A stretch of 64,000 nt of DNA, from NCBI GenBank assembly GCA_964530555.1, contig CAZHBD010000002.1:1036-65035 (forward strand), read 5' to 3'. Shown here in pieces: positions 6,001-15,000 of the stretch. The number at the start of each line of letters is the position of its first letter. Position 1 is the stretch's first letter. The stretch comes from an uncultured Candidatus Saccharibacteria bacterium. GTDB taxonomy: Bacteria; Patescibacteriota; Saccharimonadia; Saccharimonadales; AWTP1-31. The position numbers were made by a program.

Positions 6001-9000
6001 GGTGCTGGTACGCAGTTAGGTCGCAACGACTCGCTCGAGTAAACCAGCGGCAATACGCTACAATAGAGACATGAAGCGACTTTGGCAACAGATAGCATTG
6101 GCTGCTGTTGGCGCGCTGGTGCTCAGTGCAGTCATTACGGCGTTGATTCTTGCGCTGCATCAGACAGATGATAAACTGATCGACAAAGCAATCAAAACCA
6201 AAAACCCTGCGCTATGCGAGAAAGTTAAACACGTAACAAAACTCGGAACCGATGCAAAAAGGATCACCATAACTGGTGAGCAGGCGGTGGCCGAGTGCAA
6301 AGCCTATGTAGAGTTTGGCGACCGCCCCTATAAACTGTAAAGGAGTAAGTGATGAAAATAACCAAACTAGTACATTCTTGCGTGCTCATTGAAGATGGCG
6401 ACAAGGCGGTGCTCTTTAACCCGGGAGTTTACAGCTGGAATAGCGGCATAATTGAGGTGGCGAGTTTCCCTAAACTGGATGCGGTTGTCGTAACGCACAA
6501 GCACGCAGACCATTTAGGCGAAGATTTTGTGCGCGCTATTGTTGCCACCCAACCAGAGGTACAGTGGGTCGCGCCCGCTGATGCCCACGAGCAGCTCCAT
6601 GGCTTGGGTGTCAAAAATGTTACCGATCAGAGCGTCGGAGATTTGCAGGTGACAACGGTCAATCACGCCAAAGTTGAGCCTTTTGGCATCCAAGTTCAGA
6701 ACCTTATCGTGCATTGGAACGGCAAAGTAACTGATCCAGGCGACACGCACGACTTCCATGAGACGCATTCTTTGCTCATGCTGCCGATTCAAGCGCCGTG
6801 GGGTACGACTATTCGCGCCTTCGAGCTGGGACTAGAGCTTCAGCCCAAGTTTATACTGCCCATACACGACTGGATGTGGGTCGAGGACTGGCGTGAGCTG
6901 GTCTACGACGGATTGGAGCGGGTTTTTGGCCCGACATCAACTAAAGTGTTACGCCCAGTAAATGGCCAAGTCATGGAGATTGTTCTGTGAGTCAGCAGTC
7001 CAGCCAGATGGTTTTGGTAATTGCCAGTACGGCAATTGTGCAAGAGGGTAAGCTGCTACTTATTCAAGAAAGTCACCCGGACTTTTACAAAAAGTGGAAC
7101 TTACCTGGTGGGCGTGTTGACAAGGGCGAGGACCTCAAAACGGCTGCCCAGCGAGAGACTCGCGAAGAGGCTGGCGTAGGTGTTACGGTGGATGATGAGC
7201 TGCTGCTTATGCACACTGCTAGTTCAGCCCCGGTGCTTCATGCCTTTGCGGCGCACATTACTGACGGCGAACCACACGTTGACGGCCAAGAGATTCTGGC
7301 TTTTCAGTGGGTTCCGCTGGCAGAAGTTATGCAGATGGATTTGCGCAACCCCGAATACGTCCAAGCAGTTCTGGATATTTTGGTAAAATAACCCCTGTAC
7401 TCACCGAAGTAAAACGGGTATAATGGCGGAGTCTTTTATAAGACGAGGGAAAAGAGCAGCCGGACAAAATGTATCCCATTTTGCCCGCGCATGAGAAAAA
7501 CCGCAGGTTTGTCTCAATTACCCCGGGGATTGGCGCAGTTGGCTAGCGCGCGCGGTTTGGGACCGCGAGGTCGGAGGTTCGAGTCCTCTATCCCCGACCA
7601 TTTCGATTTATTTACGAAAGCAATATTTTTGTGACCGATTTTAAAGGCTGGATATCCCCGGGTGGTGGATTACCTATCAGTAGTGAGGGACTAGACCATC
7701 TGTTCGCGGAGGCTGTATTGGCTGCCGACACAGATGTTAGCTGGGCTGCGTATTTTGATGATATGCGTGCAGCTAAGGCAGAACTTGAATCATCGAGGCC
7801 ACCTGAAGACGTGTCACGAACAGTTGAACTACAGGGCGGAATCATAATCCCCGTTATGAGTGCTGGAGTTCTTAGGCTGTTTGCACGTGATATTCGCAAA
7901 GAGCGACAGGCTTTTGAGCGTCAGTTTGGCATATAATGTTCAGCCCATCTTTGTTGGCATGGCTCAGGGGCCTAAACCACCTTACCAAACATTTCTTGGC
8001 AAGGTATAATGCCCCCTGTTACATCTAGTTATAGAGAAGAGCAGTCCTTAATCAAAATGGGGGCCCAAGTTGAGGGGATTCAACTTGGGGAAGAGGAGCC
8101 GGCTTGATTAGTTTGTAGTTTTTGCTGAGCAAACTCGTTTTTTCAGCAGAATGACAAACTAATCATTATACGGTGACGACGGGGTGTGGCGCAGTTGGCT
8201 AGCGCGCAGCGTTCGGGACGCTGAGGTCGGAGGTTCAAGTCCTCTCACCCCGACCAGAAACGATTTTACTTAAATCCACCATTAAATCATATGGTGGATT
8301 TAGTTTTATAACAGGGGCAGAGTCGTCCCTTACTCGTAGGTTCAACACCATCTCTTTGTACACTTCGTCCTCTTCCACTAAATCACGTGTTGTACGTAGT
8401 ATTAACAGATACGATTGGACGAGTTCAACAAACTCTTTACGAGTTGGCAAATCTTGCTTTAGTTTTTCAAGCTCTGGTGTAAGCTCACTGCCTCTGTGAC
8501 ACTGCTCAGGCTTGCCCTCGCTACACATAATTGCAATGCGTTCACTGCTGGCTCTGCCAGTAATCTCGTCCAAGGTTTCACCATATTCGATGTTGCCACC
8601 AAGACCGCCGATATTCTTACCACGCCATTCATAGTAAATATCTGCATAAACAAGGTGCCGAGCAATTGCCGTGTGACTAAATTGTCGCCATCGACTTTGT
8701 GGCTTGCTACGGCAGTCTATGACGGTCTGTATTTGTACTGATTGTAAAAGCTCTAGAAAGGTATCAATGTTCACATTGCTATGACCGATAGTCCATATCG
8801 TGGCTGGTTTTTTGCCAATTCGAGCAACGGCTTGGTTCTTTTGCATTGTAATTTTACCCCTCTAGGTTCGGTTGGTTCTATGTATAATTATAGCTCACTA
8901 CCTCTGTTAATTCAATTATTTTTCAATGATTATTTACACTCGTCAACACGTGTAATTTACCAAAATTACATTTCATTGTGCTTAACCCTGACAAACACTA

Positions 9001-12000: not shown

Positions 12001-15000
12001 AGGTATTAAAGAGCTCGATGAATGTTACGTATACAGCTTTCAGCACGATACGACAAAGCTTGTTCGCGGCATCAAACAGAACCTTGAGGGCGAGGGTCTT
12101 GGAGACCTTGCAAGTCGTATTGCAGTAGATACAGACGATGCAATCAACCCAGACTATTTAGAGCAACGAGCAATCGAGTATCGTGATGAGTTCAAAAAAT
12201 ATGCAGGCAGAATCTTTTTGCCATTTTTTGCAGTTGATGACGGTCGTGGATTGCGTGAAGTACGTTATAGTACTGACATTTTAAGCCGAATTAAATGGTC
12301 TGATGCCGATGTCACTAAAATTGGTAGTTTGAATCTCGAAAATAAGACCACAGACGATATTACGGTAGCAGTAACTATCGACTCAGACGGCAAGCCACAA
12401 GCCACCAAGTCTTCATCATTAAGCTACGAGTCAGAGCTAGACACTGAATACGTAGCACGGCAGATTGTTGATATAGTTCCTAACCCTTGGGTTGCCTATG
12501 AGACTGCAAATACGGCTCTAGACTCTCTGTTAAAGACCAACGATATAGAAGTGGTGGCAAGCAATCTAGTCTTCGTCATAGAGTCTCTACGGAGCTTGTT
12601 ATTTAGCGAACGTGACAGACTTGCTGAGACTACATTCAAAACAATGCTAAAAAGTGGCGAAATGAAGTTCTACCTGCTCAGTGACCAGCCATTACGCAGT
12701 GTGGCAAATGTACGCAGTAAGCGTCGTTTACGCAACGGTGCAGATGAAGACTTACAAAGAAGCTTATTCGACTATGTGCCAAGTGAAGACGTAAACGGTC
12801 TAGAAGAAGCGGTAGCTTGGTATCTCGATGACCAAACAAAACTACTCTGGTGGTATCGCAATATGAGCAAGGCTGACTATCGTATTCAAGGCTGGCGACC
12901 AAATCGTATATACCCAGACTTCTTAGCTGCCAACAAAGTCGACGATGACTTCGACAAGGTGTATGTTCTTGAATCAAAAGGCGACCAGCTTGTTGGTAAC
13001 GATGACACTGAGTATAAGCGTAGTGTTTTTGAGCTATGCAACACTCTAGCAGTAGAAAAGAGCTGGAAAGAGCTAGACCTTGGGCAGACAGAACGTGACT
13101 TCCACTTCGAAATGCTAGACCAGAAGAGCTGGAAAGACCAGTTGAATCGACTGGTAGCCTAATGGCTGATCTACTGCCGTCAGATATAAAAAAGTTCAAA
13201 GCCCTGTACAAAGAGAAGTTCGATATCGAGCTTGATGATGTGGCTGCACGACATTAAAATATCGCTTGTCATGCGTTTTTCGTATGTCTTGAATCCAGTC
13301 GTAATCCGACTGGTCTATGTCTGGGTATGCGAGTGCTAAATATGCCATATAGGTACTATACTAACTTCTCTTTAATTACTGTAACAAGTTCGGGGAACCA
13401 GAAATCGGTAAAATGCCCCTTATTGGTATGTTCGTGATAGTCAGTACCGAGCATGTCTCGGATATGTTGTGGCTCCTCAATAGGTATGAAAGGGTCGTCA
13501 GTTGAAGCGAACTGTACTATCCAGTTCTGATTGGCTTTGATTGCTTCCCAATTCCAAGGCTCATCATAGTAGCCACTCATTCTTTCTGAACGAATACCGA
13601 GGTCGGTGTGCATAGCTCCAACAAGAACAGAGCCAAAGATACGATGTGTTTCCGCATACCGCATTGCAGCTACGGCTCCTGATGAGTGACCAACAATAAT
13701 ACTGTTCTCGTTTGCACCAAGTGCGTTCTCAATAAAAGGTAGCCACTTAAAAGACCGAGCCAGCATATTGTCTGGCATAGTCTGTGCAACGACCTCTAAG
13801 CCGAGTGCTTCTAGTTCGGTTTTGGCTTCGGGGAACCAAATGTCTTCAACGGTTGATCCACCGTTCCCATGAACGAAAATTACGTTAGGGCTACTCATTA
13901 CTTCTCCTCAAATTAAAAATAGACTTCGGATTGAAGCCTATTTGTTTTGGACTGTGCTGACGAGCTATTGCTCGATGGCTTCAATCATAGTGAAGCACAG
14001 CCCTGTAAGGCTGAGAAGGAGAAGGCTAATTTGATTTACTGCCTTGTGCATAACATACATTCTAAAATATCCGAGTAGTTATGTCAATCAAGCTAACTCG
14101 TTATTGTATAATATGTTTTATAACAGGGGTCGGCGAAAATAACACAAGCACTTGACAGGCATCTATGTCGCTAAGAATCATCTACTACCCCTGTTAGGGT
14201 ATGACCGACAATGTTGATTGTGCGACATGGTTCTCATGAGCCTAGCTTATTATCCAAGCATAGTGTTACCATAAATCTATGGATAAACAAACAGTAACGC
14301 TGATAGGCTCATTTAGAAAAGAAAGAAGCAAATTAGAATCAATCTTCAACGACTTATCAAAGCACTTCGAGCTACTTTGTCCTAAAAGTATTGATTTCAT
14401 TGACCACACGGCAGAGTTTGTTAAAGCTGCACATGAGATAGACGACAGCGTGAACGTTATTGAGGAACGTGTATTAGAATCTATACGAAAATCTGATTTT
14501 GTGTGGCTATTCTCTCCTGCGGGTTATGTAGGTATAAGTGCATCATTTGAAATTGGACTGGCTTATTCATTAGGTGTACCCGTATATACCGACACAGAGC
14601 TACAAGACGAAATGTTACAAACAATGATAACTGAAATAGTTAAAAAACCATTAGATGTTCAAGTCAAAGTACATAAGCCAGGTAAAGGTATATCTGGGCT
14701 ACAACGGTACTATCAAAGGGTTTCAAGCAGAAGGGGCTGGTCGAACGAATCGCCTAAAGATACTATGTTACTTCTTACAGAAGAACTGGGAGAACTAGCC
14801 AGAGCAATAAGGAAGTCAGAGGGTCTAAAGCGAGACGCTGGATACGATAATATTGGATTACAGGACGAATTGGCTGATGTGCAACTGTATCTTGTTCATT
14901 TAGCGAATGGTCTAGGTATAGACTTAGATGAAGCTGTTACACAAAAAGAACACAAAAATCACATACGTCACGAGAAAAGTAAGTAACTCTTTAATACACT

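What the first reader, a model, noticed from the sequence alone, without database searches (positions are those of the whole stretch)
8257..14278. Defence island inserted at tRNA-Pro(CGG): DUF488 + complete Type III R-M (Mod, Res) + serine hydrolase + NDT-MazG fusion
A 6-kb block begins immediately 3' of tRNA-Pro(CGG). The DUF488 ORF even reads antisense through the tRNA's 3' end and its terminator hairpin, which suggests the block joined the tRNA by integration. It contains a beta-class DPPY methyltransferase and a helicase-nuclease Res (Walker A, DEGH, PD-D/ExK), followed by a truncated ORF remnant, a YdeN-like hydrolase and a MazG-fusion gene. The 15-bp sequence GTTTTATAACAGGGG occurs at both 8303 and 14116 and could mark the island ends, although this motif also occurs elsewhere. 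DUF488 proteins are of unknown function, so its placement next to an R-M system is worth recording.
Basis: partly seen in the sequence, partly recalled or inferred. Interest (0 to 1): 0.55.

Follow-up and report, generated by a model that had tools for sequence, protein, structure and literature searches.

The report
Decayed mobile element carrying restriction system
A roughly 6-kb stretch next to a proline tRNA gene in a Saccharibacteria genome is the immobilised wreck of a mobile element that delivered an intact type III restriction-modification system; this is an ordinary kind of genomic island, though the element family behind it seems undescribed.

Summary
A low-GC block starts right after tRNA-Pro(CGG) (8180-8256). 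It carries an intact type III Mod-Res pair, a serine hydrolase and truncated ORFs. The 15-mer is at 8303 and 14115 (not 14116).

1. The 203-aa "DUF488" ORF is a chimera. Residues 1-~128 are a 3'-truncated DUF488. Residues 117-203 are the C-terminal tail of a large serine recombinase (57% identity, E 2e-29). In intact relatives that gene sits antisense against a tRNA and ends inside it. A ~4.5-kb deletion removed both recombinases.

2. DUF488 is a backbone gene of this element family (DUF488 - tyrosine recombinase - small ORFs - serine recombinase). It is not a partner of the R-M system.

3. NDT-MazG lies at a conserved position (tRNA-Pro > NDT-MazG > membrane gene, as in L111 and L112). It is not element cargo.

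Nineteen relatives have an empty site, and none of 80 has these genes there. An intact counterpart (L107, Res 83% identical) sits at tRNA-Pro(TGG), bounded by a 16-nt tRNA 3'-end repeat. The window has lost that repeat. Both 15-mer copies lie inside the island, and their role is unresolved.

Verdict: a decayed, fixed integrative element with R-M cargo, and a new member of a known kind.

The parts
8180..8256 (+). tRNA-Pro(CGG), the attachment site; the island begins at 8257
   Evidence: ARAGORN; Rfam tRNA, 64 bits. In 19 relatives this tRNA (or tRNA-Pro TGG) lies 21-65 bp from the membrane gene.
8235..8462 (-). C-terminal tail (~76-87 codons) of a large serine recombinase; a remnant that ends inside the tRNA. 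The junction with DUF488 is ambiguous within 8463-8498.
   Evidence: BLASTP gives 57% identity, E 2e-29, to residues 515-601 of the 613-aa Resolvase+Recombinase protein of L001, which abuts tRNA-Pro(TGG). DNA homology runs through the hairpin. No other recombinase fragment is present in the window.
8272..8301 (.). Hairpin (arms 8272-8282 and 8291-8301) just 3' of the tRNA, conserved with L001. Either the element's P' arm or the tRNA terminator.
   Evidence: Sequence. The same stems occur in L001 at 10768-10799.
8463..8846 (-). DUF488 gene truncated at its 3' end (first ~128 of ~145-151 codons), fused in frame to the recombinase tail
   Evidence: Pfam DUF488 E 3e-13; PADLOC PDC-M45B E 3.7e-23. 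Intact homologues are 138-152 aa, and alignment A2 shows divergence after ...CHRGSELTPELEK.
8876..9023 (.). Divergent promoter region upstream of Mod, conserved with the L107 element
   Evidence: blastn: window 8876-9373 matches L107 8220-8716 at 77%.
9024..10664 (+). Type III Mod (beta-class N6/N4 methyltransferase), intact, with a divergent target-recognition domain
   Evidence: PADLOC MTase_III E 1.4e-155 over the full length; Pfam N6_N4_Mtase E 5e-41; DPPY69 and FAGSG359. Residues ~120-350 are 24-34% identical to L107 Mod, against 82-94% in the flanks.
10667..13162 (+). Type III Res (SF2 helicase plus PD-ExK nuclease), intact
   Evidence: PADLOC REase_III E 7e-186. All motifs present. Same length as homologues of 830-846 aa, the closest being 80-87% identical.
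13162..13257 (+). Truncated copy (31 of 83 codons) of the small ORF that follows Res in intact elements; marks a second deletion junction at about 13255
   Evidence: tblastn of the L107 83-aa ORF gives E 2.6e-5; the L104 75-aa ORF gives E 1e-3.
13196..13348 (-). 50-aa ORF remnant of unknown family, downstream of the hydrolase
   Evidence: ORF list. No Pfam hit even at E 10.
13356..13898 (-). YdeN-like serine hydrolase (alpha/beta fold), intact; origin within the island unresolved
   Evidence: Pfam PF06821 E 2e-9, 38 bits against a cut-off of 22; GHSSG70. No PADLOC hit.
8303..8317 (+). 15-mer repeat, copy 1; it lies within the recombinase-tail ORF and encodes PVIK
14115..14129 (+). 15-mer repeat, copy 2; about 80 nt left of the first sequence shared with the NDT-MazG upstream regions of relatives
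14211..14986 (+). Right flank rather than element cargo: conserved upstream box AATGTTGATTGTGCGAC (14211-14227) plus the NDT-MazG gene (14279-14986), at a conserved position downstream of tRNA-Pro
   Evidence: In L111 and L112 tRNA-Pro lies 106 and 280 nt upstream of the homologue. Alignment A4. The membrane-gene homologue follows.

Best explanation
Window 8257 to about 13900-14210 is the decayed, immobilised remnant of an integrative element. The element belongs to a family that circulates in Saccharimonadales.

Intact members are laid out as follows. A tRNA gene is overlapped antisense by the 3' end of a large serine recombinase gene. Then come small ORFs, often a tyrosine recombinase, then DUF488 (or another small gene). 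A variable defence module is transcribed divergently from these. The whole element is bounded by a 16-nt direct repeat of the tRNA 3' end.

Such an element, with a type III Mod-Res module as cargo, integrated at tRNA-Pro(CGG), between the tRNA and the NDT-MazG gene. This step is inferred. Two later deletions are shown by the remnants they left. One, of ~4.5 kb, removed most of the serine recombinase gene, the small ORFs, any tyrosine recombinase gene and the last ~20 codons of DUF488. It fused DUF488 in frame to the last ~80 codons of the recombinase. The other truncated the small ORF after Res at ~13255. The distal att repeat is also gone.

The result is a fixed island whose only evidently functional defence content is an intact type III R-M system. 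By analogy with characterised type III systems, Mod would hemimethylate an asymmetric site set by its swapped target-recognition domain. Res-Mod would cut unmethylated foreign DNA that carries inversely oriented sites, using ATP. This mechanism is inferred from the family and was not tested.
For: Composition: GC 0.42-0.45 against ~0.50 in the flanks.

Empty sites: 19 of ~50 informative relatives have tRNA-Pro 21-65 bp from the membrane gene, and none of 80 loci has Mod, Res or DUF488 there.

Integrase remnant next to the tRNA: 57% identity, E 2e-29, to the tail of the L001 recombinase.

Recombinase ORFs ending inside an antisense tRNA: seen in L001, L107, L105/L106 and L039, and a split copy in L110 ends at tRNA-Gly(GCC). 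The L104 recombinase tail also reads like antisense tRNA, but the contig ends there.

Backbone order: DUF488 - tyrosine recombinase - small ORFs - serine recombinase in L104-L106, with different cargo in each.

Near-intact counterpart: L107 has serine recombinase, tyrosine recombinase, a 208-aa gene, Mod (61%), Res (83%) and an 83-aa ORF at tRNA-Pro(TGG), with 73-77% DNA identity across the Mod promoter and Mod-Res.

16-nt tRNA 3'-end direct repeats bound L099 (perfect) and L107 (15/16).

Res is 80-87% identical to its closest homologues, while flanking core genes reach at most 66-85% in any relative. This is consistent with horizontal spread.

The R-M genes are intact in length and motifs.
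Against: No distal att repeat survives in the window. The right boundary is therefore only bracketed (13899-14211), and integration itself is inferred.

The origin of the hydrolase, the 50-aa remnant and the 13899-14210 spacer is unknown. No relative was found with them on an element.

All relatives are distant (core proteins 51-85% identical), so no same-species empty site was seen.

The window's recombinase tail is of the L001 type, whereas the closest Mod-Res module (L107) travels with a different recombinase subtype (30-38% identical). The exact parent element is thus a mosaic that was not observed.

No excised circular form was found.
Confidence: 0.85

Rival explanations
1. The whole 6.9-kb tract 8257-15164, NDT-MazG included, is one insertion. 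Under this reading, an element sitting upstream of NDT-MazG in a low-GC donor excised imprecisely. It carried the neighbouring NDT-MazG gene with it and integrated between tRNA-Pro(CGG) and the membrane gene.
For: NDT-MazG has the lowest GC in the region (0.386, GC3 0.30), against ~0.48 for the genome. It is 83% identical to the L111 copy, while core genes are 51-72% identical. All 19 empty-site relatives of the ATPase type lack it. It came with its native upstream box.
Against: The order tRNA-Pro > NDT-MazG > membrane gene is shared with L111 and L112, within wider shared synteny (RNase Y ... EPSPS-SHMT-MurB). The L112 copy is 69% identical, within the core-gene range of 62-78%. The gene family is widespread in Saccharibacteria with a smooth identity gradient. 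Replacement of the allele by homologous recombination would explain the GC and the excess identity without moving the gene.
Confidence: 0.3
2. The 15-mer GTTTTATAACAGGGG is the crossover core of the L001-type serine recombinase. attP would then lie inside the recombinase ORF, and the island proper would run from 8303/8317 to 14115/14129. The tRNA, its hairpin and 14130-14278 would be the original attB flanks. Integration would swap the recombinase C-terminus: ...PVIK-HIIQ* when excised, and ...PVIK-LNPPYDLMVDLSKIVSGRGERT* when integrated.
For: Both copies are direct repeats, each close to an island end. Chance expectation is low: E 0.013 for the 22/28 match within the 6.9-kb tract, and 0.09 expected matches in the window. 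The reconstructed attB would place a terminator-like hairpin right after the tRNA, as in L111 and L112. Between the window and L001 the conservation is concentrated in the hairpin stems, while the loop and 3' flank vary.
Against: Relatives with defined ends use a 16-nt tRNA 3'-end repeat instead. L001 has ATCTGTTATAAAGC at the equivalent position, not the 15-mer, and no second copy within 10 kb. The 9-nt core CCCCTGTTA is a recurrent promoter-proximal motif (6 times against 0.35 expected, and directly after TATAAT at two tRNA promoters), so a non-att origin is available. A 15-bp identity is long for a serine-integrase core. No excised form was found.
Confidence: 0.2
3. The block is ancestral and vertically inherited, not an island. 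The tRNA adjacency and the low GC are coincidental.
For: No recombinase gene is intact and no att repeat is present. The ORFs in the block are intact and tightly packed.
Against: Empty sites occur in 19 relatives, and the genes are absent from all 80 loci. There is a recombinase remnant at the tRNA. The same Mod-Res module sits on intact elements at other tRNAs. Res is 80-87% identical across genomes whose core genes are far more diverged.
Confidence: 0.03

Closest known systems
Type III restriction-modification systems (EcoP15I / EcoP1I / StyLTI type)
   Same: mod lies immediately upstream of res on the same strand (2-nt gap). Mod is a beta-class N6/N4 methyltransferase with DPPY before FxGxG and a central variable target-recognition domain. 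Res has SF2 helicase motifs and a C-terminal PD-ExK nuclease. Both give full-length matches to PADLOC type III profiles.
   Different: Similarity to the curated enterobacterial equivalog is low (NCBIfam PRK15483 scores 34.7 bits against a cut-off of 564). It belongs to a separate subfamily that is widespread in metagenomes. The recognition site and the activity are unknown.
tRNA-gene-targeting genomic islands and integrative elements (classically with tyrosine integrases, such as P4-like islands)
   Same: Insertion at the 3' end of a tRNA gene, a direct repeat of the tRNA 3' end in intact relatives, foreign composition, defence cargo, and decay by deletion of the integrase.
   Different: The recombinase at the tRNA junction is a large serine recombinase, and its ORF ends inside the antisense tRNA. 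A tyrosine recombinase is present only in some members and lies inside the element. The large survey of serine recombinases that I read does not mention tRNA targets.
Anti-phage islands driven by large serine recombinases, such as Vibrio cholerae PLEs (PMC6002521, title and abstract as listed)
   Same: Small chromosomal islands that use a large serine recombinase and carry anti-phage functions.
   Different: No evidence here for phage-inducible excision, replication or packaging genes. The target is a tRNA gene. The window's copy has lost its recombinase.
DCTPP1 (all-alpha dCTP pyrophosphatase) and DNPH1/Rcl (dNMP N-glycosidase) - for the neighbouring NDT-MazG gene
   Same: Foldseek matches the C-terminal half to DCTPP1/RS21-C6 (E 2e-4) and the N-terminal half to DNPH1 and nucleoside 2-deoxyribosyltransferases (E 1.6e-3 and weaker). 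The profile also hits DCTPP1 chains (E 1e-15).
   Different: Here the two activities are fused in one 235-aa protein. The family is common (46 representative clusters at E<=1e-30), but no source gives it a name beyond 'NTP pyrophosphatase' or 'MazG protein'. Substrate and role are untested.

Membership tests
Type III R-M system | Mod: N6/N4 methyltransferase with motif IV (DPPY) N-terminal to motif I (FxGxG) and a central TRD | tested here: met
   DPPY at 69 and FAGSG at 359; Pfam N6_N4_Mtase E 5e-41; PADLOC MTase_III E 1.4e-155 covering 1-543 of 546
Type III R-M system | Res: SF2 helicase motifs plus a C-terminal PD-(D/E)xK nuclease | tested here: met
   GGGKT78, DEGH240, SAT266, QLIGRVLR431, YPD749...ESK769; PADLOC REase_III E 7e-186; Pfam ResIII E 2.6e-14
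Type III R-M system | mod and res adjacent, co-oriented and full length | tested here: met
   Mod ends at 10664 and Res starts at 10667. Both match the lengths of their homologues: 543-574 aa for Mod and 830-846 aa for Res.
Type III R-M system | Site-specific hemimethylation and ATP-dependent cleavage | not testable with these tools
   Needs a methylome or biochemistry
tRNA-integrated genomic island / integrative element | Starts at the 3' end of a tRNA gene, with foreign composition | tested here: met
tRNA-integrated genomic island / integrative element | Unoccupied site in related genomes | tested here: met
   19 loci with a 21-65 bp spacer; none of 80 carries the genes. The relatives are distant.
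tRNA-integrated genomic island / integrative element | Site-specific recombinase gene at the junction | tested here: inconclusive
   Only the last ~80 codons remain. The gene is intact in relatives L001, L107 and L106.
tRNA-integrated genomic island / integrative element | Direct repeat of the tRNA 3' end at the distal boundary | tested here: not met
   No copy within 3 mismatches of the 16-mer or the 25-mer. The repeat is present in L099 and L107. The window is therefore filed as a decayed derivative and not as a mobile element.
Large serine recombinase | Resolvase catalytic domain plus Recombinase domain (plus zinc ribbon) | tested here: not met
   The window holds only a C-terminal tail with no catalytic domain. 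It is a remnant, not a member.
DUF488 (PF04343) | Complete DUF488 domain | tested here: inconclusive
   The Pfam hit is above its cut-off (48.8 bits against 22.2), but the protein lacks the last ~20 residues found in 138-152-aa homologues. They are replaced by unrelated sequence.
PADLOC candidate system PDC-M45 | Presence of the system's several components | tested here: not met
   Only the DUF488 ORF hits PDC-M45B and PDC-M45C (E 3.7e-23 and 2.7e-7). No other ORF in the block hits PDC-M45 models. Not filed as PDC-M45.
NDT-MazG fusion family | N-terminal nucleoside 2-deoxyribosyltransferase/DNPH1-like fold plus a C-terminal all-alpha MazG/DCTPP1-like domain | tested here: met
   MazG Pfam E 1.3e-9. 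NDT is sub-threshold alone (E 0.085), but 24 of 40 family members hit PF05014. The AF2 model has pLDDT 93.8. Foldseek finds DCTPP1 and DNPH1/NDT.
YdeN-like serine hydrolase (PF06821) | Pfam match above its cut-off and a GxSxG nucleophile | tested here: met
   38 bits against a cut-off of 22; GHSSG70

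The most novel reading that the evidence does not exclude
The window's wreck would point to an undescribed family of small integrative elements in Saccharimonadales. Their large serine recombinases target the 3' ends of tRNA genes (Pro, Arg, Gly), and each recombinase ORF crosses the attachment junction into the antisense tRNA. The recombinase C-terminus could then differ between the excised and integrated states, which might act as a directionality or expression switch. 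The elements shuttle interchangeable defence modules (type III and type II R-M, CBASS) next to a conserved DUF488-tyrosine-recombinase pair of unknown role. If these recombinases are active, they would be ready-made site-specific integration tools for Saccharibacteria, which are hard to manipulate genetically.
Probability: 0.35. Interest if true: 0.6.

Novelty: new member of a known kind. Interest (0 to 1): 0.38.

Why it matters
For this genome, three points matter.

1. The annotated 203-aa "DUF488" protein is a fusion artefact of decay and should not be used as a family member.
2. The only credible defence system here is an intact type III R-M with a swapped specificity domain. Its recognition site could be read from a methylome.
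3. The island is fixed and no longer mobile.

More broadly, the comparison shows that R-M and CBASS modules move between Saccharimonadales genomes on small elements that insert at tRNA genes and carry a serine recombinase. That bears on how these reduced-genome epibionts acquire phage defence. It could also supply integration tools.

Tried and rejected
1. Exact-sequence look-ups of window proteins (MBL with two start codons, the membrane protein, Mod, and later P0001) found no contig. The window's own record could not be fetched.

2. After the empty-site survey and the GC profile I extended the island to ~15,100 to include NDT-MazG. I revised this when L111 and L112 showed NDT-MazG natively downstream of tRNA-Pro. 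It is kept as a rival at 0.3.

3. I searched for a displaced tRNA fragment or att repeat and found none. A 16/21 match of the tRNA anticodon arm at 15119-15139 (E 2.9) was judged too weak.

4. I tested whether the tRNA-Pro slot is a dedicated defence hotspot. Inserts in relatives are mostly ordinary genes of matching GC, so I rejected the idea.

5. I tested whether the window's NDT domain is related to the NDT-like gene beside the L001 recombinase. There is no significant similarity (E 0.16).

6. I looked for excised or viral forms of L001-type elements in IMG/VR, by protein and by DNA pattern. Neither gave a hit.

7. An Rfam scan of 7300-15300 found only the two tRNAs.

8. Literature searches on Saccharibacteria or Patescibacteria with serine recombinases and tRNA, and on DUF488 function, found nothing relevant. 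DUF488 appears only in passing mentions, one as a fusion partner of a CTP-binding ParB-fold protein in archaea.

9. I considered the tyrosine recombinase as the integrase, because a 16-nt tRNA repeat is typical of that family. I rejected it as the general explanation because L099 and L001 lack it, while the serine recombinase always sits at the tRNA junction.

10. I found no source for the 50-aa remnant (13196-13348). Pfam gives no hit even at E 10. My impression that it resembles the N-terminus of a 2H phosphoesterase is unverified and is not claimed.

Full report
**1. The observation**

ARAGORN places tRNA-Pro(TGG) at 7524-7600 and tRNA-Pro(CGG) at 8180-8256, both on the + strand. GC drops from about 0.50 to 0.39-0.44 between 8001 and 15000. 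Per gene, Mod is 0.424, Res 0.438, the hydrolase 0.453 and NDT-MazG 0.386. The flanking MBL, Nudix and P-type ATPase genes are 0.50-0.52.

- a 203-aa ORF on the - strand (8235-8846) that overlaps the last 22 nt of the tRNA and a hairpin (8272-8282/8291-8301);
- Mod (9024-10664);
- Res (10667-13162);
- small ORFs at 13162-13348;
- a 180-aa hydrolase (13356-13898, - strand);
- a 235-aa MazG-domain protein (14279-14986).

It occurs nowhere else in the window, even with two mismatches.

**2. The R-M system is a complete type III pair**

Mod matches a PADLOC type III methyltransferase profile end to end (E 1.4e-155). Res matches a type III endonuclease profile (E 7e-186). Mod has DPPY at residue 69 and FAGSG at 359, the beta-class order. 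Res has GGGKT78, DEGH240, SAT266, QLIGRVLR431 and YPD749...ESK769. Res homologues are 830-846 aa, so the 831-aa protein is full length.

**3. The "DUF488" ORF is a chimera**

The DUF488 profiles cover only residues ~15-122. Intact close homologues (51-82% identical) are 138-152 aa. In alignment they diverge from the window's protein after ...CHRGSELTPELEK.

The closest genome found through the left-flank MBL gene is L001, a Candidatus Saccharibacteria MAG (MBL 69% identical, RNase Y 85%). There, a 613-aa protein with Resolvase and Recombinase domains lies antisense directly against tRNA-Pro(TGG) and overlaps its 3' end. Residues 117-203 of the window ORF are 57% identical (E 2e-29) to residues 515-601 of that recombinase. 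The DNA 3' of the two tRNAs is homologous, hairpin included.

So the ORF reads into the tRNA because its last ~80 codons are the tail of a large serine recombinase gene that normally ends there. The junction is at about nt 8463-8498. The public record calls the chimera as one 203-aa protein (P0001).

**4. The element family**

*Contexts of the closest intact DUF488 genes (L104, L105/L106).* The order is: variable defence cargo, then divergently DUF488, an overlapping tyrosine recombinase, small ORFs (DUF5659, a 75-aa ORF, DnaD_N/HTH_36), and a large serine recombinase. The cargo is a C5 methyltransferase with an NgoFVII-type endonuclease, Z1, Vsr and a CD-NTase-Cap15 pair in L104, and two Dam-like methyltransferases with an HTH protein in L105/L106. 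In L105/L106 the serine recombinase ORF covers an antisense tRNA-Arg(GCG).

*Contexts of the closest Res homologues (80-87% identical).* L107/L108 have tRNA-Pro(TGG), a serine recombinase (-) overlapping the tRNA by 12 nt, a tyrosine recombinase (-), a 208-aa gene (-), Mod (+), Res (+) and an 83-aa ORF (+). Window and L107 share 73-77% DNA identity over the Mod promoter (8876-9373) and from mid-Mod through Res (10086-13140). In between, Mod residues ~120-350 are only 24-34% identical, which indicates a swapped target-recognition domain. The same Mod-Res module occurs next to serine recombinases in L109 and in L110, where a split recombinase ends at tRNA-Gly(GCC).

*Remnants and ends.* The window's 31-codon ORF at 13162-13257 is a truncated homologue of the 83-aa ORF that follows Res (E 2.6e-5). 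This marks a second deletion junction. Elements with both ends in view are bounded by a 16-nt direct repeat of the tRNA-Pro 3' end: perfect in L099 (6913-6928 and 12202-12217) and 15/16 in L107 (4687-4702 and 15536-15551).

*Which recombinase integrates.* The serine recombinase is present at the tRNA junction in every element. The tyrosine recombinase is found only in L104-L108. I therefore attribute integration to the serine enzyme. This is an inference.

**5. The empty-site test**

A metagenome scan with the right-flank ATPase returned 80 Saccharibacteria-like loci at 54-66% identity. Their common order is tRNA-His, ATPase, a convergent 211-aa membrane gene, tRNA-Pro(CGG), tRNA-Pro(TGG). The spacer between the membrane gene and the nearest tRNA-Pro is 21-65 bp in 19 loci and 0.1-6.2 kb in about 30 others. 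In the window it is 6,908 bp. None of the 80 loci has a homologue of Mod, Res, DUF488 or NDT-MazG. Inserts in other relatives are mostly ordinary genes of matching GC, so this slot is variable but not a dedicated defence hotspot.

**6. The right boundary and NDT-MazG**

I first extended the island to ~15,100, because NDT-MazG has the lowest GC and the empty-site relatives lack it. The contexts of its closest homologues changed that view.

In L111 (83% identical) tRNA-Pro(TGG) lies 106 nt upstream. In L112/L113 (69%) it lies 280 nt upstream, with a tRNA 3'-end scar in between. A homologue of the membrane gene follows. The three upstream regions share the box AATGTTGATTGTGCGAC, at window 14211-14227. 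Wider synteny is also shared: RNase Y ... tRNA-Pro ... NDT-MazG ... membrane gene ... EPSPS-SHMT-MurB.

NDT-MazG therefore sits at a conserved position, and the element-derived DNA ends between 13899 and 14211.

Its allele is nevertheless odd. It is 83% identical to L111's, where SHMT, EPSPS and MurB are 72, 64 and 51%. Its GC of 0.386 matches low-GC relatives rather than this genome. I read this as allelic exchange. The alternative, that it arrived with the island, is kept at 0.3.

**7. What NDT-MazG is**

The two-domain family is common: 1,078 representative clusters at E<=1e-3 and 46 at E<=1e-30. Of 40 aligned members, 37 hit Pfam MazG and 24 hit Nuc_deoxyrib_tr. The AlphaFold model is confident (pLDDT 93.8). 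Its C-terminal half matches DCTPP1/RS21-C6, and its N-terminal half matches DNPH1/Rcl and nucleoside 2-deoxyribosyltransferases.

From those families one would predict a two-step breakdown: dNTP to dNMP plus PPi, then dNMP to base plus deoxyribose 5-phosphate. This is an inference. It has no PADLOC match.

**8. The 15-mer**

The repeat is real and extends to 22/28 nt. Both copies lie inside the island, 47 nt from the tRNA and about 80 nt left of the shared box. The left copy encodes PVIK of the recombinase tail.

Its 9-nt core CCCCTGTTA occurs six times in the window against 0.35 expected. It sits directly after TATAAT upstream of tRNA-Pro(CGG) and tRNA-His, and also upstream of tRNA-Pro(CGG) in L024. 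The att scar of intact relatives is the 16-nt tRNA 3' end, and the window has no second copy of it.

The 15-mer might still be the crossover core of L001-type enzymes, with attP inside the recombinase ORF. I could not find an excised form to test this, and I give it 0.2.

**9. Verdict**

The finding is real, and its main idea is right: an island joined to tRNA-Pro by integration, carrying a complete type III R-M. It is a decayed, fixed derivative of a serine-recombinase element and an ordinary kind of object.

The added value is threefold. The DUF488 chimera is corrected. DUF488's position is explained as element backbone. And an apparently undescribed family of tRNA-targeting serine-recombinase elements that shuttle defence modules in Saccharimonadales comes into view. 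I found no description of such elements in the searchable literature.

Noticed in passing
window 8006-8021 (+) and 24587-24601 (-); also L024 ~12622-12640: TATAAT-NN-CCCCTGTTA lies directly upstream of the tRNA-Pro(CGG) leader and of tRNA-His, and in L024 directly upstream of tRNA-Pro(CGG). The 9-mer occurs 6 times in the window against 0.35 expected, always near tRNA genes or in the island. It looks like a GC-rich discriminator or start-site element of stable-RNA promoters in this lineage.
   Followed up: partly
window 8013-8179: A 167-nt, strongly structured leader lies between that promoter and tRNA-Pro(CGG): MFE -60 against -39.5 kcal/mol for shuffles, z -5.5. Its 3' half aligns with the leader of tRNA-Pro(TGG) in L112 (~9560-9643), with stem-preserving differences. 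Rfam has no family for it.
   Followed up: partly
window 17700-31500: tRNA-His (24289), tRNA-Arg-TCT (28436) and tRNA-Gly (31394) are 3-4 kb apart and 6.6 kb from the ATPase. In many relatives they are adjacent to one another and to the ATPase. The intervening 1082-aa and 455-aa ORFs have no Pfam hit. These may be further insertion slots.
   Followed up: partly
L112 9866-9886; L024 ~12668-12683: Orphan copies of the tRNA-Pro 3' end lie downstream of tRNA-Pro genes in relatives (AAGTCCTCTCACCCTGACCA in L112, CCTCTCACCCCGA in L024). They are probably scars of past integration and excision at these tRNAs.
   Followed up: no
L104 650-7300: An element of the same backbone type carries a C5 methyltransferase, an NgoFVII-type endonuclease, Z1, Vsr, a CD-NTase plus Cap15-like effector (CBASS-like) and a deaminase. 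The defence cargo is therefore modular.
   Followed up: no
L039, L099, L101, L030, L076, L100, L029: In these relatives tRNA-Pro(TGG) is inverted relative to the membrane gene. In L039 and L099 the abutting serine recombinase is inverted with it. This suggests recombinase-associated inversions at the locus.
   Followed up: no
window 15119-15139: A 16/21 match to the anticodon arm of tRNA-Pro(CGG) (GTTCGGGTCGACCAAGTCGGA) lies 26 nt upstream of the membrane gene. It is weak (E 2.9) but positioned where a displaced or decayed tRNA might lie.
   Followed up: partly
window 14121-14196: A 9-bp inverted repeat, TAACAGGGG ... CCCCTGTTA, brackets a TTGACA-17-TAAGAAT promoter-like site in the spacer upstream of NDT-MazG. 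It could be an operator pair.
   Followed up: no
window 57000-63600: A second low-GC tract (0.39-0.46) ends near tRNA-Lys(CTT) at 63604-63680. Its ORFs are DUF805, GAPDH, an AAA_33 kinase, a Nudix protein and several without Pfam hits. No recombinase or defence signature was seen.
   Followed up: partly
window 8235-8846 (public record P0001): The NCBI-derived protein set calls the DUF488/recombinase-tail chimera as a single 203-aa protein. This is an annotation artefact and could contaminate DUF488 alignments.
   Followed up: yes
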